From assembly GCA_000004985.1 (NCBI GenBank), contig GG738858.1: a stretch of DNA of 64,000 nt; one strand, given 5' to 3'. Shown piece after piece: positions 575 through 12,732 of this stretch. Under the pieces are notes generated by a model that saw only the letters and a list, made by a program, of their open reading frames with translations, was not told where the DNA came from and ran no database searches. The DNA comes from Naegleria gruberi. Lineage: Eukaryota. The translations under genes and the position numbers were made by a program. Each line of letters starts with the position of its first letter. Positions within the stretch are counted from its first letter, which is position 1.

Positions 575-931
575 TTATTCTTCTCCATCATCATCATCCT
601 CATCATCTTCATCTTGTTGACTATTCTTAATGTAGGTATTGAATTTAGGAATGGCAATAAAATAGGCTGAAGAAATAAACAAGGCAGTGAATGCTATCAC
701 TCTCCTTCCGAATGAATCATTCCACATCTTTCCAATATTCAATGCTAATTTCTGGAGACGAGTGAGTGGAACTTCATTAGGCTTTGAAGATGTTGGTTTG
801 ATAGGATTGAAATTATTCTTCCTTCCTAGAAAAGATACAATCTTATTAGTGGTTGGTGTTGATGAATTAATTGGTTCACTGTTTCCGAGGAGTGTATTAT
901 TATTACTAGGTTTCTTTTCCGTCGTCGACAT
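575..931 (-). CDS. Hypothetical 118-aa protein with a C-terminal hydrophobic segment and an acidic DEDDEDDDDGEE tail (tail-anchored-like).
   Basis: ATG-initiated ORF with aaATG context. Hydrophobic stretch RVIAFTALFISSAYFIAIP near the C-terminus. No family recognised. Confidence 0.4.
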   Translation of the reverse strand: MSTTEKKPSNNNTLLGNSEPINSSTPTTNKIVSFLGRKNNFNPIKPTSSKPNEVPLTRLQKLALNIGKMWNDSFGRRVIAFTALFISSAYFIAIPKFNTYIKNSQQDEDDEDDDDGEE

Positions 932-1133
932 TGATTATGAAGTAGAAAGAAAATTTAAATAATTTAAAGTAATTTGATGATTTTTTAATAAATGAATTGA
1001 AATAATATTTGTTGAAGGCTTTTTTAAAAAATTTTGAATATTTAAAAAAATAGCCTTTAAACTTGTGCAAGGAGCCTTTTTGTATTTTATCTCAAAACTT
1101 TGATTAAAAGTCTATTTCGGAATTGCATTAAAA

Positions 1134-3700: not shown

Positions 3701-4996
3701 ATGGTTGAATTATCGGAGAAGGATGTAATTGCAATTGCAGTTTCATCAAGTGTTGGTGGAGTTTGTTTATTTTCCCTTCTACTCTCTGTCACTGTCTATT
3801 CTATTTATTTATATAGGAGAAGAAGGACAAGTCAACAACAACAACAACAACAACAATCTATACCATCAATGACAACACCTCTATTACAAAATAATAGTAA
3901 TAATTTAAATAATAATAATTCAAATAATTTAAATAATTTAAATAATTCAAATAATTCGAATAATTTAAAAAAACAAGTAAATTTACAAATAATTAAAGAA
4001 GGTATTATAAAATCATGTATTCAAGATAAAGAAGGAATACTTGTTAAAAGTTCTATTGCTAAAGATTTACCAAGATTAGTAAAAAAGACAATTTTATATT
4101 TTAATGGAAATGAAACATTTTCAAATATGGAACCAACAGTTAAATCATCACCAAGTAAAGGAGCAGAAGGTGATATTAATTTTGTTTGTTGTAAATTCCT
4201 TGCAGAGTTATCAAAATGTGTTAATGGTTCACAAAATGGAGTTATGGAGCTATCACAACAAGATGATCAACATTCCTCTTATGGAAGTAATACAAGTAGT
4301 TCATCACATTATAGTTTATTAGCAGTTAAAGGAGATTTAGATATTATTGATACGAGTATGAATGATCCAATGATTGATTTTAAAAGAAGATCAACAAGAA
4401 TGTTAATGAATACTTTGAATAACATTTCGAATAGAACAAATAGTCCAGATTCTTCCTCAATGATTAATGTTCAAAATTTTGAAACATTTTCAATCTTTTT
4501 AAAAGAAGTTTTTGGAGAACAATCACCAGTTGTTAACATTCTCAAATTGTGTAGTCAAACTGCTCTATTCGAAGGTTTAAATCAATTGAGACCTGCACTA
4601 ATGGATGTTGGAATAATGTTTAAGGATTTTAGAGGTAAAAATTGGACAGTTAAGATTTATACAAATAATCATGAACATTATCTTCAACAACAACAAATGA
4701 TACTTCCAATAGTTGAAGAGTCAAATTCTCCTTCTATAAATGGAGAATTGGAAGATAATTTTGAATTGCCAACTATAATTCATGAAAGAATTGAACAAGT
4801 AATTAACATGCAATTACAAAATTTATTTACATTTACTTATCAATTACAAATTGTAATGGATGAACATTTTCAATCAGTTCATCGAGTTCAATACAAGTTA
4901 TTGTCAATTGATTTTTCCAAATCAAATTTCCAATCAAGCGAAAAAGAAGAATATGAAGAAAAAATCAAATCTGTTTTTCAAAATGTGAAATTTTAA
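3701..4996 (+). CDS. Hypothetical type-I/II membrane protein (431 aa) with an N-terminal TM segment followed by RRRR, a polyGln run and an Asn-rich NNLNN repeat.
   Basis: Long ATG ORF. The main frame opens just after TGA at 3623-3625 and 3701 is its first ATG. No recognisable catalytic domain. Confidence 0.5.
   Translation: MVELSEKDVIAIAVSSSVGGVCLFSLLLSVTVYSIYLYRRRRTSQQQQQQQQSIPSMTTPLLQNNSNNLNNNNSNNLNNLNNSNNSNNLKKQVNLQIIKEGIIKSCIQDKEGILVKSSIAKDLPRLVKKTILYFNGNETFSNMEPTVKSSPSKGAEGDINFVCCKFLAELSKCVNGSQNGVMELSQQDDQHSSYGSNTSSSSHYSLLAVKGDLDIIDTSMNDPMIDFKRRSTRMLMNTLNNISNRTNSPDSSSMINVQNFETFSIFLKEVFGEQSPVVNILKLCSQTALFEGLNQLRPALMDVGIMFKDFRGKNWTVKIYTNNHEHYLQQQQMILPIVEESNSPSINGELEDNFELPTIIHERIEQVINMQLQNLFTFTYQLQIVMDEHFQSVHRVQYKLLSIDFSKSNFQSSEKEEYEEKIKSVFQNVKF
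3891..3970 (+). repeat. Coding tandem repeat of about 9 nt (aataatt[ct]a)n, giving an NNLNNSNN low-complexity tract.
   Basis: Direct reading: aataattcaaataatttaaataatttaaataattcaaataattcgaataattta. Confidence 0.6.
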
Positions 4997-5210: not shown

Positions 5211-6845
5211 CTACTGATTATTAAAGCAAATAGTATCCATTCTCAAAATATTGATTACAATCTGGATGGCAGTCTGAATGATATGTTTTCTGTTGTAAAA
5301 AGATTCAAGAGGAATGTAAGTGGTTGATGCGTGTTGGAATAACTCACTTCTCTGTATCAATGAAAGAGGCTTTTCATTTAGCGATTGTATAGAACTTGTC
5401 GATTGAATAAACGTCACATATTCCTCATTATTTTTCTTGACTAGTTCTTCTAGTAGTTGAAAGAAGTATCTTTCGTTGAATTGGGGTAGTGAATTCCTCA
5501 ACAACATTTTTGGAATGGTGAGCAGTGACTTGGAGACGAGGGTCACAATAATCTTAAACAATTCATCCTCTTTGTCTTGGGCAAGTGTTTGTACAATATT
5601 AGATAAATGGCATTCAAATGAACCTCCTCCAATTATTGCTGAAATTTCTCCTCTTCCAATTACATGTTTTACATGTCTAATACAATTAATTATTTGAAAT
5701 TCAACTTGATTCAAGTTTTCTTGATTCAATGATTTCAATTGTAGTGTGGAAAATACATCATCATGCATACTATTAGGAAAGTCAAAAGTTAAATCACATT
5801 GCTGACCATTATTCTTGAAAATAGTTTTCATGTTTGAAAGACCATAATTATAGTCTTTGAGATTTTCAAAGCAAGTTGCTATTCCAGTCATTTTCAAAAT
5901 ATCAACAAGTTTGAATATCAAATCCATACTATTTGATTGATAGAAAAATACTGAAACGCCTCTTTCATTCAAAATTTGAATAAATCTTCTACTCAGTATG
6001 TTAAACTGTTTTCCAACAAGTATAATTACATTACAATCTATTTTCATGGCAATATTTTGATCCAAATCACAACTGAGGATACATATTTTTGATTGATTAA
6101 CCTTTTCCTGTTGCGAAATTCTTATATTCAAATTCTGAAGTGATTGTAATGTCAAAGAATTTTTAAATAATTTACTATCATCTATCTTTCCCAAAGATTT
6201 AGAAATATTTAAATTATATTCAGAAATTAAATGTAAATTCTTAAACCCATTTGATGAATATTCAAACCATTCATAAATTAAATTTTTTAAATGATTACTT
6301 TGAATTTGAATATTAATCATTGATTTGATAAAAATTGATAATTCCTCACTCGTTCCAATCTTAATTTTTAATAATGAATTATCTGAATTGTTATTAAACA
6401 TTCTTTCCATAATTTGATGTAAATAATTACAAATGGTATTAATATTTTCATACTTGTTTCCAAATTCTGAACAAATTAAATCCAACAACTCATAACTCAA
6501 CACTAAACATGAAATTGTTCCATCACAAAATTCACTCGCAACACCACTAAACAATGATATCAAATATTGTACTATTGGATTATTAGTTTTAATAAATTCT
6601 AAAATCTGACTTCCACTCCTCGTAATAATTTGACTCTGATGAACATCAGTAATTAATTTAAATTTACCATTCGGACCAAATGATGAGGAAACCTGATTTA
6701 CCAACTTGAACAATTCATTTCTAATTTGAATGGTGGTATTATTATTTAATGTTTTCTGATGACTCACTGATAGAACCATCACTGAATTCGGAGAAAGAAA
6801 TCTCAAGCCTTGATTTTGTTGCATTTTTTCCCGCCCAAATTCCAA
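5211..6845 (-). CDS. Highly divergent group-II chaperonin (TCP-1/CCT)-like protein (544 aa), possibly of the BBS/MKKS-like chaperonin-like type.
   Basis: Keeps the CCT signature spacing: FGPNGKFKLITDVHQSQIITRSGSQIL (cf. LGPKGMDKM...ITNDGATIL). The ATP-binding GDGTT motif is present only as CDGTIS. C-terminal IGGGSFE (cf. VPGGGAxE). Size is the same as CCT subunits. Confidence 0.55.
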   Translation of the reverse strand: MEFGREKMQQNQGLRFLSPNSVMVLSVSHQKTLNNNTTIQIRNELFKLVNQVSSSFGPNGKFKLITDVHQSQIITRSGSQILEFIKTNNPIVQYLISLFSGVASEFCDGTISCLVLSYELLDLICSEFGNKYENINTICNYLHQIMERMFNNNSDNSLLKIKIGTSEELSIFIKSMINIQIQSNHLKNLIYEWFEYSSNGFKNLHLISEYNLNISKSLGKIDDSKLFKNSLTLQSLQNLNIRISQQEKVNQSKICILSCDLDQNIAMKIDCNVIILVGKQFNILSRRFIQILNERGVSVFFYQSNSMDLIFKLVDILKMTGIATCFENLKDYNYGLSNMKTIFKNNGQQCDLTFDFPNSMHDDVFSTLQLKSLNQENLNQVEFQIINCIRHVKHVIGRGEISAIIGGGSFECHLSNIVQTLAQDKEDELFKIIVTLVSKSLLTIPKMLLRNSLPQFNERYFFQLLEELVKKNNEEYVTFIQSTSSIQSLNEKPLSLIQRSELFQHASTTYIPLESFYNRKHIIQTAIQIVINILRMDTICFNNQ

Positions 6846-7203: not shown

Positions 7204-10200
7204 ATGATGTCGGTTCAATCGATAGTGGGAGGAGAAGGTTCTTCTAGAAGGACCAGAGGATCAATTTATTCTTCAATGATTCTGATCATGTCAATTGTGA
7301 TGATGATGATGGTCATTTTGATGGGTCAACAGGAATATCATTCTTGTAGTGCTGTTGTGAATCCAACATGTTTTGGTTTTACCAATAGTTCAGGTTTTGA
7401 ATGTGTTCATCAATTGGGATCATGTATTAGTGATAATACTTGTTTCTTTTCTCCAACAACTTCAATCATTGGAATGGGTAGTAATACCTATTCACAACTT
7501 GGTATTACTGCTTCAAATTTTACTGATTATCCAATTAGAGTCAACTCTACGTACAATAGAATTTTCTATATCAGTAAAATGACAATGACTAATAGTTTAG
7601 TAACAGACTACAATGGAGATGTGTTAATGTCTTCAACTCAAGATCAAAAATTCATTCAAGCCTCCACTGCACTTCCTGCTTTGACAACTATGAATATTGG
7701 TGGTGATTTTCCAATTGCAATTTTAGGAGATGATACCACTACTGCTTTAATCACAACCACTAACAAGATTTATGTTTATGGCGATCAGACAAATAATAAT
7801 TTGGGTAGAGAAACTCTTGCTGATGAGGTTGTTTCCTCTCCTACTGCTTTGGGTTATCAGAATGTTGTTGATGCTTCTATTTCAAAATTGGGTGGATGTG
7901 CAATTCATAGCAATAATGGTGTTGACTTTAATATTACTATTTGGGGACCAGCTGCTAAAACCATGTCCAATGGAGTTGGTTATTTAGCATTGACTAATCA
8001 AGCCATTAATAATGATAATTCTCGACCATTTGTAAAATGTGAAATTATTTCTGCTAAGAATTCAAGTGGTTATGATGTTCCAGCAGTTTTTGTTATGGAT
8101 GATTTGGGTAATTTGTACTCTGGTGGAGCCAGAAGTAATTTGGAAGGTTGTAATCCAACCATCAAAAATGCATGTGACTTTGGTGAATGTTTTGCTGCTC
8201 AAAAGATTTTATCAAGTGTAGATTCATTCAAGTGTTCAGCCACTCATTGTGTTGCTGCAATTAATGGTACAGATATTTATGTTTGGGGAAATAACACAAA
8301 TGGTCAACTCGGTAATTCTGCCTATCTCCAAACACCAACAAGGATTCAAGTGTTTACTCCAGAAACTATAATTCAAGTAACTGCTACTAAGAAAAATATT
8401 TATGCATTAACTGAATCTGGTTTTATTTATGGTATTGGTAGTAATGAAAAAGGTCAATTGGGTCGTTCTCCATCTACTTTCCTCTCTAGAACCTATTTCA
8501 CTAAAATTGTAATTCCAGATCAAAGAAGAAAGATTTGGCATATGGCTGATGGTCCAAACAGTGAACATTTGTTGGCCTTTACTGGCTTCAAATGTGCATC
8601 TCAATACTCAGGTGGTGATTGTTCCACTCCTCTTTTCAACTGTGCAGGTTATGCTCCAAGCGATTCTGCTGTTTGTGGAGGTAATGGTATTTGTGCTGAT
8701 ACTGATTATTGTATCTGTTCTTCTGGATTTATTGGTCAATTCTGTAACACTACAGTTTCATCAGCTTGTTATGGAAAGCCAACAAATTTGGCTTGTAGTA
8801 ACAGAGGTTCTTGTATTGGTGTTGATAATTGTCAGTGTGCCTCACCATTCACTGGCAACCAATGTGAATTGTTCCAAAATGATTTTAATTTTGTTGCAAA
8901 TTTCTCACAATTACCAAACTCAAAGATTTATGATAACTTTAATATTTCTAATCTTGTTATCACCCCTACACTTGGTATTTCCAACCCAGCTTATAATACT
9001 ATTTGGGCCTATACTCAATATACCTCAAAGCTTTATTTGACAGGTCCATCTTCATACAGTTGGCAAGGTAGTCAATTATCATTCGATAAGAATTTTGTTA
9101 CCAATTTGAAACCAGGTTATTATGTTCTCAAATCAGAAAGTATTGCCAATGTTACCAATCAAATAATTGTTGTTAACAATACTTTTACATTTGAAAAGGT
9201 TTCTACATCTTTAACAAATCCACTTACATTAGATCAAACAGGTGTAATCTATGTATCACAGTTTGCATCTGTTGTTGTTTCAGCACTTATTACTGACCCA
9301 ACCTTTGATGCCTCAACATTTGATTATGACTGGCTTTCCAGTAATGATCAAGCTAATTATGTTTCTGTCAAAGCATCCACATCTATTGTCAATAATAATA
9401 AGATTACTTTTACCAATCTTGCATCTCAACTCCTTCCATCAAACTTTGCTGGTACCAATCACACTGTTTTTTTCAAAGTAACATACAATAGATATAGTGG
9501 CGACTCCAATTCATTTAGTGCTTATTTCACAGTTGTCATCAGTACAAAGGCCTATGCCCCAACTATTGCTCTAACTAGATTCCCATTTAGCAGTTATTTG
9601 TCAACAACAAGAGCAACAAGTCTTTCAGCTGTTTTGACCTTCACTGAAACTATTCCTTCAGATTTGGTTATTAGTTACTTGTGGACCTGTGATAAATTTA
9701 CTATTACAGATGCCACACAAGCTGCTTTAATTATCTATCCAGCTCAATTGACCATTGATACTTCATACCAATTCTCCCTGACTGTCACTGTATCATACAA
9801 GGGAGATGTTAACACATATGTTTCTACTTTAAATATCAAAACTCCACCTGCTTTACCAACATATTCTGTTAATACTCAAATACTCAGCATTTCTCCAAGC
9901 GATGGTAGTGGTGTTGCTCTCCTCACCTCTCACAATATCACAGTTGCTCCTCTTCCAGTTTCTGATACTAGAATTCTCAAGTATACTGTCAGATATTCTT
10001 TCAATGCAAGTGATGCTGCATCCTTTAAAGATTTATTATCTCTCAGTTCAACAATTTTGAATGATAGTGCTTATCTTCCATATGGTACTATGACACTTCA
10101 AATCTACATTGAAGACGAATATGGAAACAAATTGACAGCTGGCAACTTGGCTGTTTCAACTCAAAATATTGACTTTAGTTCACTTGCTAATATTATTAAC

Positions 10201-12732
10201 ACAAGAGATTTGTCTTTGAATCAAATTGAAACTACAGCAACAACACTCAATTCTGCTGCTGACCAAGATACTAAATCCCTAAGAGAAAAACTTTCAGAAA
10301 TTCTTATAGCCAAACTTAATGGTCAATCTTCTTCGACAAGTCAAGCTATTTTGAGTATTTCTCAAAAACCTTCAGATATCACTGCTAAAACTTCTCAACT
10401 CCTTGTTTCTGGTGTTACAACTTTGGGAGGTAATCTCAGATCAATTTATGCAGCAGGTGGTGAAGCAGATAAAATAGCTAGTGCCTTGACTGGTTCATTG
10501 TCAAACATTGTTGACAACAAGAATATTACTACAAATGAAACCAATAAGGATATTACCAATTCTTTGGCTTCTATCTCAAGAGAACTTGCCAAGATTTTAC
10601 TTCCATCCCAAACCTTGTCAATCAGCTCTAATAATTTCAATATCCTTGTTTTTGGATCTTCCTCTACAAAATCCAGTAATTATACTATTGAAGGATCATC
10701 AATTGGTACTCCTGACAACTTTGATGAATATCTTTCTGGTGCCACTTCATCACTTAACTCTGCCTCTAAGGCCTATGGTGTTGAACTTGTCTACTACAAA
10801 TCTTCATTGTTTGAATCAGTTGGAAAAGCCTCTAACAGTACAAGATCTAGTAATATTTTATCATTTGTTGTTAGTGCCTCCACATCATTTGGTAGTGAAA
10901 GTAGATCGACAGTTTCTATCAAGGGATTGACGAAACCTTTGGTGTTTACATTTACTGTAGCTAATGGTTCTACAAATGGATTCGAATGTAAATTTATTGA
11001 CGAAATTAATAATTATTGGAGTACAGATGGTTGTTCCTCTTTGATCCTCAATGACAACACTGTACAATGTTCATGCAATCACGCAACTAAATTCTCTACA
11101 TTCAGATTATTTACTCAAGTTGTATCCCAAGAAGAATATCTTGGAAGTACTGGTATTAGAATTGTCAATGTTATTTTTGGTGCTATTTATTTCTGTCTAG
11201 CTGCTTTGGTGTTCATTGCTTTGATTATTCTCAGAAACATCAATCCTGTAAGATCAAGATACATTGGTCCTTACATTGGTTTGATTGCAATTATGGTTGA
11301 CTCATTGATCATTTCATTCATCCAAAATATTGTAGTTTTATCTTTGGATAAGGGTATATCCAATTCAACTGCCGATATTGCCAATATTAGAAGAATCAGC
11401 GACGGTTTTAACTATTTCAATGTAATCCTTGTCATTCCTCTTTACTTGACCGCTTTCTTCACTTTCTTGGTCCAAATTGTTAGATACTTTATCAAGAGAC
11501 ACATGTATGAATTCATGTCAAATAAGGTTCTTTTCAATGCTCAAATTTATAGAGCTATTACTTCCAAGATTGCCTTTTGGGTTACCTTGCTTTCTTCTTT
11601 GGCAATAATTATGGCTTATTACACCATTTGGGTTGGTTTGGGAGGAGGAAATGTTTTCGTTGTTAGTACAAACACTGCTCAACAAGATAAGGAAAGAATG
11701 ACATTTACATATATTACTTCCCTTTCCTACTTTGGTCTTGCATGGATAATTGCTATCTGTATGGTTGTTATTGCAGCTTGGGATCTTTTCTACATGAATC
11801 GCCATTTATTCACTTCATGTTGTTATTCTCAAGAAGATTTGTTGAAGAAATCCTCTAGCAATCTTAATCAAACTAGAAATAGAGTTGAAAAACTTCTCAA
11901 TATGTTATCTAGAACAAAGAAACAAAAAGTTCAACTTGGAAAGTCTGCATGGTTGACTGTCCCTCAAGTTTACTACTTTACCGATGACAATTTATATTTC
12001 AGATTGGAAATTCACGTCTTTATTACAGCCTTTGTTTTCCTCACCATCAACTATCTTGCTGGTATTGCTGATATTTCAGTAATTTCAGTTGGATTAACCA
12101 ATGCTGGATCCCGTTTGGCTCCTCAAATTGTTTCCCTAATTGCTGGTATTCTCTACACATTCTGTTTGATTGCTGCTTTTGGTGGTGTGATTGTTGTCTC
12201 TTACCTTACTGAAAGACGTAGAAAGCAGTACCATAAGGATGTAGCTCCTCAATCAAAGATGGATGAAGATGAATTGAACATTGTATTGAGTGATAGATTT
12301 GGTAAACCATTGTTTGTTGAATTCTGTCAAAAAGAATTCTCACTTGAAGTAAGTTTTGGAAATTTTAATTTTATTAACACATTTAAATAGAATGTTTATT
12401 TCTATGATGCAATTACTGATTTCCTTAGAAGTGCTGATTCTAAATCAGATGCAGATGTTAAGAATTCCATTTCTGACATGTTTGAAAAGTATATCAAGAC
12501 TGGTTCTGAATATGAAGTCAACTTGCCTAGCGCCTCAAAGAAGGCCTTTATCACAACACACGAGTGTTCACAACCATCCTCCAAGATGGTTAAGGATATG
12601 TTGGACAATGTAATGATTTCAGTCATGTACAATTTGAAGGATACTTACAGTAGATTCTCAATGACTGAAGAATACAAGCTCTACCAACAAAGTAGAGACA
12701 ACATCAGTATGTTGGAAAACAACTTCTTGTAA
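7204..12732 (+). CDS. Adhesion-GPCR-like receptor with a C-terminal RGS domain, about 1.83 kaa. Exons 7204..12348 and 12391..12732; 42-nt intron 12349..12390 (GTAAGT..AAATAG, phase 0).
   Basis: N-terminal signal anchor. RCC1-like repeats (YVWGNNTNGQLGNS, IYGIGSNEKGQLGRS). Three EGF-like Cys patterns (CGGNGICADTDYCICSSGFIGQFC, CSNRGSCIGVDNCQCASPFTGNQC). GPS motif WSTDGCSSLILNDNTVQCSCNHATKFSTF immediately before 7 predicted TM helices. The RGS box starts in exon 1 (FVEFCQKEFSLE) and continues in exon 2 (NVYFYDAITDFL...EYEVNLPSASKKAF...KDTYSRFSMTEEYKLY). The unspliced read-through hits TAG at 12388. Confidence 0.75.

What the first reader, a model, noticed from the sequence alone, without database searches (positions are those of the whole stretch)
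5211..6845. Chaperonin (CCT/TCP-1)-like protein with a degenerate ATP site
The ORF keeps CCT landmarks at the right spacing (GPNGKFKLI...ITRSGSQIL; IGGGSFE near the C-terminus). The nucleotide-binding GDGTT motif reads CDGTIS and most other conserved positions are lost. Chaperonin-like proteins of this type in other eukaryotes (MKKS/BBS6, BBS10, BBS12) work in BBSome assembly for cilia. A homologue in a protist would be notable, and is consistent with the flagellate-type gene content (kinesin-14).
Basis: partly seen in the sequence, partly recalled or inferred. Interest (0 to 1): 0.55.

Follow-up and report, generated by a model that had tools for sequence, protein, structure and literature searches.

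The report
Catalytically dead CCT-like chaperonin in Naegleria
This Naegleria gruberi gene encodes a fast-evolving extra copy of the CCT/thermosome folding machine that keeps the fold but has lost the residues needed to burn ATP; it resembles the animal BBS6/10/12 "chaperonin-like" proteins in kind, but nothing shows it descends from them.

Summary
Window 6824..5211 (-) is an intact, intron-less 537-aa gene. It is identical to Naegleria gruberi XP_002679372.1 / NAEGRDRAFT_65524, annotated only as "predicted protein". It is a real group II chaperonin: Pfam Cpn60_TCP1 E=2.7e-28, and the AlphaFold model matches CCT/thermosome chains at TM ~0.75.

It is none of CCT1-8. It scores 28-53 bits against subunit models whose cut-offs are 450-800.

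The hydrolysis residues are gone. GDGTTS reads CDGTIS, TNDGATIL reads TRSGSQIL, and the catalytic Asp of "HDA" is Asn. GP.G, DGT and GGG remain.

An exhaustive search of 1.84 billion proteins found one orthologue (N. lovaniensis, 42% identity, catalytic Asp replaced by Lys) and one metagenomic fragment.

The proposed link to BBS6/10/12 is not supported. Profile comparisons give thermosome 191, CCT-alpha 136, BBS10 45, MKKS 37 and BBS12 20. MKKS and BBS10 are just as star-like towards each other, so orthology cannot be excluded either.

Best reading: a lineage-restricted, non-catalytic CCT paralogue acting as an accessory or assembly factor, client unknown. Moderate interest. I class it as a new variant of a known kind.

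The parts
5211..6824 (-). Complete single-exon CDS (ATG 6824..6822, TAG 5213..5211), 537 aa: N. gruberi NAEGRDRAFT_65524 / XP_002679372.1 / UniProt D2V9Q8, a divergent group II chaperonin paralogue
   Evidence: the translation equals P0001 exactly; Pfam PF00118 E=2.7e-28
6825..6845 (-). 21 nt included in the finding only because the bacterial-code ORF caller started at TTG; probably 5' UTR
   Evidence: the NCBI model starts at Met8 of the listed ORF
6405..6752 (-). N-terminal equatorial segment (aa 25-140), the best-conserved part (51% identity to N. lovaniensis, model pLDDT >90). It carries the GP loop, the degenerate NDG motif and the P-loop.
6657..6680 (-). FGPNGKFK (aa 49-56): the GP.G loop is kept, but the Asp of canonical GPxGxDK is replaced by Phe (Tyr in N. 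lovaniensis)
6600..6626 (-). ITRSGSQIL (aa 67-75): canonical (I/V)TNDGATIL with Asn-Asp lost (TKNGNQLL in N. lovaniensis)
6510..6527 (-). CDGTIS (aa 100-105): P-loop GDGTT(S/T) with Gly replaced by Cys and the second Thr by Ile; Asp-Gly-Thr retained (MDGTIS in N. lovaniensis)
5745..6212 (-). Apical (substrate-binding / lid) region, aa 205-360. It is about 155 aa against about 173 aa in canonical subunits, with the lid/helical-protrusion segment shortened. Model confidence is low (pLDDT 45-70). Identity to N. lovaniensis is 40%, and that orthologue carries 65 extra residues here.
5679..5702 (-). EFQIINCI (aa 375-382), aligned to canonical ERSxHDAL. The catalytic Asp (Mm-cpn D386 equivalent) is Asn380 here and Lys in N. 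lovaniensis.
5613..5633 (-). IGGGSFE (aa 398-404): the conserved GGG nucleotide-pocket motif is retained (IGGGCFE in N. lovaniensis)
5214..5630 (-). C-terminal equatorial segment (aa 399-537), about 20 aa longer than canonical. It contains the genus-conserved TIPKMLLRNS and IPLESF..KRHII..AI.IV.NILRMDTI blocks.

Best explanation
The gene encodes a lineage-restricted, rapidly evolving ninth-type paralogue of the eukaryotic CCT/thermosome (group II chaperonin) family. Orthologues were detected only in Naegleria-like organisms.

It keeps the three-domain equatorial-intermediate-apical fold and the shape-defining pocket motifs (GP.G, DGT, GGG). It has lost the carboxylates that activate water and Mg2+ for ATP hydrolysis, and it has a shortened, poorly conserved apical/lid region.

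It therefore most likely cannot run an ATP-driven folding cycle. I infer that it works as a non-catalytic 'pseudo-chaperonin': a client-specific adaptor or assembly factor that binds a substrate and/or docks on canonical CCT, in the way BBS6/10/12 are thought to work in animals.

Shown here: family membership, fold, loss of the catalytic residues in two species, non-identity with CCT1-8, and retention as an intact gene in two Naegleria species.

Inferred: loss of ATPase activity, the accessory role, and any client. BBSome or flagellar assembly is one candidate client and is untested.
For: - Family and fold: Pfam Cpn60_TCP1 E=2.7e-28. AF2 model pTM 0.79 with equatorial pLDDT >90. Foldseek TM 0.72-0.76 to every CCT subunit and to thermosomes, with no subunit preference.
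- Not a canonical subunit: 28-53 bits against cut-offs of 450-800 for N. gruberi, and 35-48 bits for N. lovaniensis.
- Catalytic loss: Asp of HDA is Asn (Ng) or Lys (Nl); GPxGxDK is KFK/QYK; TNDG is TRSG/TKNG; GDGTT is CDGTI/MDGTI; GGG is kept.
- Real, maintained gene: 537 intact codons at 28% GC. There is a full-length orthologue in N. lovaniensis (E=3e-58) with conserved equatorial blocks, plus a third fragment from a metagenome.
- Rapid evolution and narrow distribution: only 42 hits at E<1e-3 in 1.84e9 representatives, and only one orthologue.
- Same grade of divergence as the animal chaperonin-like BBS proteins when scored with the same models: MKKS 25-97 bits, BBS10 22-41 bits.
Against: - No biochemical, localisation or expression data could be reached for this gene.
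- Retention of Asp-Gly-Thr in the P-loop and of GGG leaves open nucleotide binding, and even residual hydrolysis by a non-canonical route.
- Some archaeal thermosomes among the hits also lack the HDA Asp, so loss of that residue alone does not prove loss of function.
- The apical domain is modelled with low confidence, so statements about the lid are soft.
- I did not verify that N. gruberi has all eight canonical CCT genes. The low scores argue against this being a replacement, but the point is untested.
Confidence: 0.6

Rival explanations
1. [quoted passage not shown] It mediates BBSome assembly with CCT during Naegleria's amoeba-to-flagellate differentiation.
For: - It has the same grade of divergence from CCT models as MKKS and BBS10, and catalytic residues are lost as in MKKS.
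- Naegleria builds flagella, and the BBSome is reported to be conserved as a set in ciliated species (PMC10074162).
- A BBS10-like protein, P0032 (GDGSKT motif; best hit of human BBS10), is among the 42 hits of the exhaustive search. Another, P0051, was hit by the two-species profile.
- The GGGxFE motif and a small insertion before GGG in N. lovaniensis are shared with BBS10-like sequences.
Against: - hhalign gives BBS10 45, MKKS 37 and BBS12 20, against thermosome 191 and CCT-alpha 136.
- phmmer bits to vertebrate BBS proteins are <=17.
- The hit to P0032 covers only about 60 residues around GGG, and both proteins are N/K/I/S-rich, so composition may drive it.
- The P-loop differs from BBS10 (CDGTIS versus GDGAKT).
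- Published surveys place the origin of chaperonin-like BBS proteins 'early in Opimoda', and that paper's main text reports none outside Mastigamoeba, Malawimonas and Dictyostelium (PMC10074162). Paramecium has a BBSome without them (PMC8535419).
- I could not retrieve flagellate-stage expression data.
Confidence: 0.15
2. It is still a working ring subunit: a stage-specific or specialised CCT isoform that inserts into the hetero-oligomeric ring and contributes substrate binding while its neighbours supply ATPase activity.
For: - The full-length three-domain fold, with a well-conserved stem-loop and equatorial N-terminal segment.
- In canonical CCT some subunits contribute little to ATP hydrolysis (my own background knowledge, not checked here).
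- A mild, consistent lean to CCT-alpha.
Against: - Scores are 8- to 28-fold below the subunit cut-offs.
- Only 42% identity between two congeneric species, with large indels in every domain. Ring subunits, by my own background knowledge, are among the most conserved eukaryotic proteins.
- The apical and lid segments are shortened.
Confidence: 0.1
3. It derives from an archaeal thermosome acquired by horizontal transfer into the Naegleria lineage and has since diverged.
For: - The best non-Naegleria hits are archaeal thermosomes (Freyarchaeota P0005, E=2.4e-12; many others).
- The thermosome profile gives the top hhalign score.
Against: - The same Freyarchaeota protein is also the top hit for MKKS, Ceratiomyxa P0041, P0013 and P0032 (second behind one other protein for human BBS10 and for P0025). 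It therefore behaves as a generic, consensus-like attractor.
- Identity is only about 27%, and the thermosome profile was the deepest one used.
- Against the PDB, eukaryotic CCT-alpha outranks all thermosomes.
- The same ambiguity was examined for the Dictyostelium BBS12-like protein, and no archaeal affinity was found (PMC10074162).
Confidence: 0.05
4. It is a decaying duplicate (pseudogene in progress) with no function.
For: Loss of catalytic residues, fast divergence, low-complexity insertions in the N. lovaniensis copy, and no conserved synteny.
Against: - 537 uninterrupted codons in a 28%-GC sequence.
- A full-length intact orthologue in a second species, with 51% identity in the N-equatorial domain and sharply conserved C-terminal blocks that are also present in a third sequence.
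- A confident fold prediction for the equatorial domains.
Confidence: 0.05

Closest known systems
Canonical CCT/TRiC subunits (CCT1-8) and archaeal thermosomes (group II chaperonins, Pfam PF00118)
   Same: Same superfamily and the same three-domain fold (TM ~0.75). The GP.G loop, DGT of the P-loop, the GGG motif and the C-terminal equatorial helices are conserved.
   Different: It is not assignable to any subunit (28-53 bits against cut-offs of 450-800). The catalytic Asp and the NDG Asp are lost. The apical/lid region is about 18 aa shorter. It evolves very fast (42% identity within the genus).
[quoted passage not shown]
   Same: Same kind of object: a highly divergent CCT-derived paralogue outside CCT1-8, with a comparable score range against CCT models. 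It has a degenerate nucleotide site like MKKS and BBS12, and it occurs in an organism that builds flagella.
   Different: No specific sequence affinity (hhalign 20-45; phmmer <=17 bits). It lacks the large BBS10/BBS12 insertions, has a different P-loop, and leans to CCT-alpha rather than CCT8. No evidence links it to the BBSome.
Orphan CCT-like proteins of other protists, e.g. Dictyostelium DDB_G0268902 ('BBS12-like', PMC10074162) and Ceratiomyxa fruticulosa P0041
   Same: These are also outside every CCT family, have archaeal thermosomes as their best outside hits, and (for P0041) have a CDGT-type P-loop and a lost catalytic Asp.
   Different: Only weak mutual similarity (P0041 versus the Naegleria proteins 32-33 bits; hhalign 52-76), so there is no evidence that they form one family. 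The Dictyostelium sequence could not be retrieved for comparison.

Membership tests
Group II chaperonin superfamily (Cpn60_TCP1, PF00118) | Significant match to the family profile above the curated cut-off | tested here: met
   99.4 bits against a cut-off of 34.3, E=2.7e-28
Group II chaperonin superfamily (Cpn60_TCP1, PF00118) | Three-domain equatorial/intermediate/apical fold | tested here: met
   AF2 pTM 0.79; Foldseek TM 0.72-0.76 and E~1e-22 to CCT and thermosome chains over about 560 columns
Group II chaperonin superfamily (Cpn60_TCP1, PF00118) | Intact ATP-hydrolysis residues (GDGTT P-loop, NDG, catalytic Asp of the HDA helix) | tested here: not met
   CDGTIS, TRSG, and Asn380 in place of the catalytic Asp; the N. 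lovaniensis orthologue has MDGTIS, TKNG and Lys
Group II chaperonin superfamily (Cpn60_TCP1, PF00118) | Assembly into a double-ring oligomer | not testable with these tools
   Needs biochemistry or cryo-EM; no multimer prediction was available
Canonical CCT subunit (any of alpha to theta) | Score at or above the NCBIfam equivalog cut-off for one subunit, clearly above the other seven | tested here: not met
   Best scores are eta 53, gamma 52.4 and alpha 51.8 bits against cut-offs of 669, 553 and 800. Even divergent true CCTs from Mikrocytos and Anaeramoeba score 429-540 bits on their own subunit.
Chaperonin-like BBS proteins (BBS6/MKKS, BBS10, BBS12) | Specific sequence or profile affinity to one BBS family, above the affinity to CCTs (orthology) | tested here: not met
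   hhalign BBS10 45.5, MKKS 37.2 and BBS12 19.9, against thermosome 190.8 and CCT-alpha 136.4; phmmer <=17 bits. Caveat: BBS10 and BBS12 were available only as OCR text from PMC2846930 supplement 22 (plus P0032 and P0051), and MKKS only from mammals.
Chaperonin-like BBS proteins (BBS6/MKKS, BBS10, BBS12) | Monophyly with BBS clades in a phylogeny (reported derivation from CCT8) | not tested
   No ML tree software was available, and pairwise identities of 15-20% are saturated for distance methods. Similarity leans to CCT-alpha rather than theta.
Chaperonin-like BBS proteins (BBS6/MKKS, BBS10, BBS12) | Family-specific insertions (BBS10/BBS12 intermediate-domain and pre-GGG insertions; MKKS C-equatorial insertion) | tested here: inconclusive
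   N. gruberi has only +2 aa before GGG. N. lovaniensis has +13 aa of low-complexity sequence at the BBS10 insertion site. Both have a longer C-equatorial segment (138 and 172 aa against about 116).
Chaperonin-like BBS proteins (BBS6/MKKS, BBS10, BBS12) | Functional link to the BBSome and CCT (interaction with BBS2/BBS7/BBS9, basal-body localisation, co-expression with flagellar genes) | not testable with these tools
   The Naegleria differentiation microarray (Fritz-Laylin & Cande 2010, PMC2987438) is not held. No held paper or supplement mentions gene 65524.

The most novel reading that the evidence does not exclude
The Naegleria protein is the first Discoba representative of the ciliopathy chaperonin-like lineage (BBS6/10/12). 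That would move the origin of dedicated BBSome-assembly chaperonins from 'early Opimoda' back to the last eukaryotic common ancestor. It would also offer a system in which the factor can be studied during synchronous, de novo flagellum assembly.
Probability: 0.13. Interest if true: 0.6.

Novelty: new variant of a known kind. Interest (0 to 1): 0.37.

Why it matters
Animals need three catalytically odd CCT-like proteins (BBS6/10/12) to build the BBSome. It is debated whether other ciliated eukaryotes need such helpers, and when they arose.

A maintained, catalytically dead CCT paralogue in Naegleria bears on this in two ways. Naegleria is a discobid, far from animals, and it assembles basal bodies and flagella from scratch within about an hour. 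Either the protein is a deep orthologue, which would push the origin of these factors back to LECA. Or it is an independent case of the same evolutionary route, in which a duplicated CCT loses ATPase activity and becomes a client-specific adaptor.

Both outcomes are testable in an experimentally synchronous system. As it stands, the protein is an uncharacterised 'predicted protein' whose family membership is already detectable by Pfam. The finding is therefore a solid lead rather than a surprise.

Tried and rejected
1. Word-indexed homologue searches with the protein and with the two-species profile returned only the protein itself, two thermosome-like metagenomic proteins and one cnidarian-type sequence. 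They were too insensitive and composition-biased.
2. A bait search with OCR-derived human MKKS/BBS10/BBS12 returned only mammalian MKKS, because the profile is keyed on its first sequence. Genuine BBS10 and BBS12 sets were therefore not obtained.
The PDB holds no BBS chaperonin.
4. Literature look-ups failed for Mukherjee & Brocchieri 2013, van Dam 2013 and Fritz-Laylin & Cande 2010, none of which is held. The gene identifiers appear in no held paper or supplement.
5. A distance phylogeny was considered and rejected. At 15-20% identity the corrected distances are saturated, and long-branch attraction would decide the result.
6. Synteny is not conserved between N. gruberi and N. lovaniensis, so it gives no functional hint.
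7. dN/dS was rejected, because synonymous sites are saturated at 42% amino-acid identity.
8. I tried to extend the metagenomic fragment (L002) upstream. Only the C-terminal exon is recognisable.
9. The pseudogene, archaeal-transfer and canonical-subunit readings were considered and down-weighted (see the rival explanations).
Full report
**What is there.** The ORF caller lists a 544-codon ORF at 5211..6845 on the minus strand, starting at TTG. The sequence shows an ATG at 6824..6822 preceded by stops further upstream. Translation of 6824..5211 (1614 nt, ATG to TAG, 28% GC) is identical to a 537-aa database protein. That protein is N. gruberi EFC46628.1 / XP_002679372.1 / UniProt D2V9Q8 / NAEGRDRAFT_65524, named only 'predicted/uncharacterized protein'. 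The window is therefore Naegleria gruberi nuclear DNA, and the gene has no intron. Surrounding genes are an unrelated mix, with no functional clustering:
- TruD-type pseudouridine synthase
- a GlfB_C-domain protein
- an RCC1/EGF/GPS receptor-like protein
- a C-terminal-motor kinesin
- an NTF2+RRM protein
- a MORN protein
- ETF-QO
- a lipase
- EMP70
- CDC20

**Is it a chaperonin?** Yes.
- Pfam Cpn60_TCP1 scores 99 bits against a cut-off of 34, E=2.7e-28.
- PDB CCT and thermosome chains are hit by sequence, and more strongly by a two-species profile: CCT-alpha 59 bits, E=3e-15.
- An AlphaFold2 model built on a 38-sequence alignment has mean pLDDT 76.6 and pTM 0.79. The equatorial domains are above 90 and the apical domain is at 45-70.
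- Foldseek aligns the model over its whole length to every CCT subunit and to thermosomes (E 3e-22 to 1e-20, TM 0.72-0.76), with no preference for one subunit.

**Is it one of CCT1-8?** No. The eight NCBIfam equivalog models score 28-53 bits against curated cut-offs of 450-800. The N. lovaniensis orthologue behaves the same way, at 35-48 bits. Even very divergent genuine subunits scored 429-540 bits on their own subunit model, for example Mikrocytos epsilon and Anaeramoeba alpha. There is a mild and consistent lean towards CCT-alpha. It is too weak to name a parent subunit.

**The nucleotide site.** I aligned the protein with thermosomes and labelled CCT subunits.

| Canonical motif | N. gruberi | N. 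lovaniensis | Status |
|---|---|---|---|
| GPxGxDK | GPNGKFK | GPCGQYK | GP.G loop kept, Asp lost |
| (I/V)TNDGATIL | ITRSGSQIL | TKNGNQLL | Asn-Asp lost |
| GDGTT(S/T) | CDGTIS | MDGTIS | Asp-Gly-Thr kept |
| ERSxHDAL | EFQIINCI | EYQIHKCV | catalytic Asp is Asn380 / Lys |
| GGG | IGGGSFE | IGGGCFE | kept |

From my own knowledge of group II chaperonins, the HDA Asp is the Mm-cpn D386 position. D386A variants are the standard hydrolysis-dead mutants, and such entries appear. The residues that shape the pocket survive, but the carboxylates needed for hydrolysis do not, and the replacement residue differs between the two species. I infer that nucleotide binding is possible and hydrolysis is unlikely.

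**Other anatomy.**
- The apical region between the intermediate-domain anchors is about 155 aa, against about 173 aa in canonical proteins. The shortening falls in the lid/helical-protrusion segment. Model confidence is low there, so this is tentative.
- The C-terminal equatorial segment is about 20 aa longer than usual.
- Identity to the N. lovaniensis protein is 51% in the N-equatorial domain and 33-40% elsewhere. N. lovaniensis carries about 138 extra, largely low-complexity residues.

**Distribution.** An exhaustive HMMER scan of 1.84 billion cluster representatives found only 42 proteins at E<1e-3. One is a true orthologue: N. lovaniensis XP_044544784.1, 673 aa, 42% identity, E=3e-58. One is a 113-aa metagenomic fragment that matches the C-terminal blocks at 38-41% identity. 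All the rest are weak hits to archaeal thermosomes, to assorted CCT alpha, gamma, delta, epsilon, eta and theta subunits, and to a few orphan divergent chaperonins. The two Naegleria loci share no neighbours. The gene is thus real and maintained, but it evolves fast and is detectable only within Naegleria-like organisms.

**The BBS6/10/12 hypothesis.** I obtained genuine mammalian MKKS sequences. Human BBS10 and BBS12, and mouse Bbs12, were available only as OCR text from the supplement of PMC2846930. Two database proteins, P0032 and P0051, behave as BBS10-like: they carry GDGSKT/GDSTKE P-loops, and P0032 is the best hit of human BBS10.
- **phmmer.** The Naegleria proteins score <=17 bits against any BBS protein. 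They score 22-32 bits against ordinary PDB CCT chains and up to 61 bits against the best database hits.
- **hhalign.** The two-species Naegleria profile scores thermosome 191, CCT-alpha 136, gamma 125, theta 96, epsilon 75, delta 70, eta 58, BBS10 45, MKKS 37 and BBS12 20.
- **Control.** MKKS and BBS10 show the same star-like pattern towards each other: about 50 to each other, and 154-171 to thermosomes.

Similarity therefore gives no support for orthology, and it lacks the power to reject it. When scored with the same subunit models, the Naegleria protein lies in the same divergence range as MKKS (25-97 bits) and BBS10 (22-41 bits). It is the same kind of object. Weak hints toward BBS10 are the presence of P0032 among the 42 hits, the GGGxFE motif, and an insertion before GGG in N. 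lovaniensis. Shared N/K/I/S-rich composition and the short aligned stretch could explain these equally well.

**Literature.**
- Reviews still differ on whether BBS6/10/12 are vertebrate-specific (PMC9325507) or older (PMC5534436, citing Mukherjee & Brocchieri 2013).
- The most recent survey (Ewerling et al. 2023, PMC10074162) concludes that the BBSome dates to LECA, whereas chaperonin-like BBS proteins 'arose early in Opimoda'.
- That survey reports BBS6 candidates in Mastigamoeba and Malawimonas, and a BBS12-like orphan in non-ciliated Dictyostelium. The best outside hits of the Dictyostelium orphan are archaeal thermosomes, which is the same behaviour I see here.
- Its main text does not mention Naegleria or Discoba; the species figure and supplement could not be read.
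- Paramecium has a BBSome but no BBS6/10/12 (PMC8535419).
- No held paper or supplement mentions this gene's identifiers.
- The Naegleria differentiation expression study is not held.

**Interpretation.**
- **Best (about 0.6):** a lineage-restricted, non-catalytic CCT paralogue. It is a pseudo-chaperonin that has kept the fold for binding, to a client and/or to CCT, rather than for ATP-driven folding. BBSome or flagellar assembly is a plausible client but is untested.
- **BBS orthology (about 0.15):** a true BBS-family orthologue.
- **Specialised ring subunit (about 0.1).**
- **Archaeal transfer (about 0.05):** the Freyarchaeota top hit is a generic attractor for all divergent families.
- **Decaying pseudogene (about 0.05):** contradicted by the intact ORFs and the conserved blocks in two to three species.

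**Verdict.** I class it as a new variant of a known kind, of moderate interest.

Noticed in passing
window 7204..12390 (+): The head-to-head neighbour, across a 379-bp intergenic region, is a 1728-aa receptor-like protein. It has RCC1 repeats, EGF-like modules, a GPS (GPCR proteolysis site) motif and a multi-pass C-terminal region, which is an adhesion-GPCR/polycystin-like architecture in a discobid. In mammals the BBS/CCT chaperonin complex is reported to be needed for ciliary-base localisation of an adhesion GPCR (title and abstract of PMC11913874). This is probably coincidence.
   Followed up: partly
P0041 (Ceratiomyxa fruticulosa transcript, 614 aa): This is another orphan CCT-like protein outside all CCT families (no NCBIfam match at 1e-90). 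It has a CDGTKT P-loop, a lost catalytic Asp (LFSAL) and an insertion before GGG. It may be an amoebozoan counterpart of the Dictyostelium 'BBS12-like' protein. It is only weakly similar to the Naegleria protein (32-33 bits).
   Followed up: partly
P0032 (561 aa, Logan assembly) and P0051 (564 aa, EukProt 'Seg6996.1/GoldUCD'): These look like non-vertebrate BBS10 relatives. They have GDGSKT/GDSTKE P-loops, human BBS10's best hit is P0032 at 57 bits, and both have an insertion before GGG. One source labels P0051 'Thermosome subunit alpha'.
   Followed up: partly
P0017, P0020, P0035 (archaeal thermosome-class hits; alignment): Several archaeal thermosome paralogues among the hits also lack the catalytic Asp (IHKAL, IKKAI, IRNGL) and the GPxGxDK Asp; P0020 even reads GPNGKFKLI as in Naegleria. 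Catalytically degenerate group II chaperonin copies may be recurrent in archaea too.
   Followed up: no
P0005 / P0045 (1057 aa, Candidatus Freyarchaeota 'thermosome subunit alpha'): This is a double-length Asgard thermosome-like protein, with the chaperonin match starting near residue 513 and four matched stretches. It is the top or near-top hit for every divergent family tested (Naegleria, MKKS, BBS10, Ceratiomyxa, P0013, P0025). It behaves like a consensus-like attractor.
   Followed up: no
L001 (N. lovaniensis PYSW02000037.1) 8001..10022 and flanks: The N. lovaniensis orthologue sits between a Sel1/TPR protein and a formin (FH2). None of its neighbours match the N. gruberi neighbours, so local gene order is not conserved between the two species at this locus.
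   Followed up: yes
L002 (metagenome contig ERZ27237200 k141_420665) 729..1070: This is a third homologue, known only from a 113-aa C-terminal exon-like ORF. No upstream coding sequence for the rest of the protein is recognisable on the 1.3-kb contig, which suggests an intron or an assembly break. The source organism is unknown.
   Followed up: partly
The Pfam Kinesin motor domain lies at aa 367-700 of 710 (E=5e-104), which is consistent with a kinesin-14-type architecture.
   Followed up: partly
window 3701..4996 (+): The convergent downstream neighbour is a 431-aa protein with an N-terminal transmembrane helix, poly-Q/poly-N tracts and a partial GlfB_C domain match (E=4e-12). Its function is unclear.
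   Followed up: no
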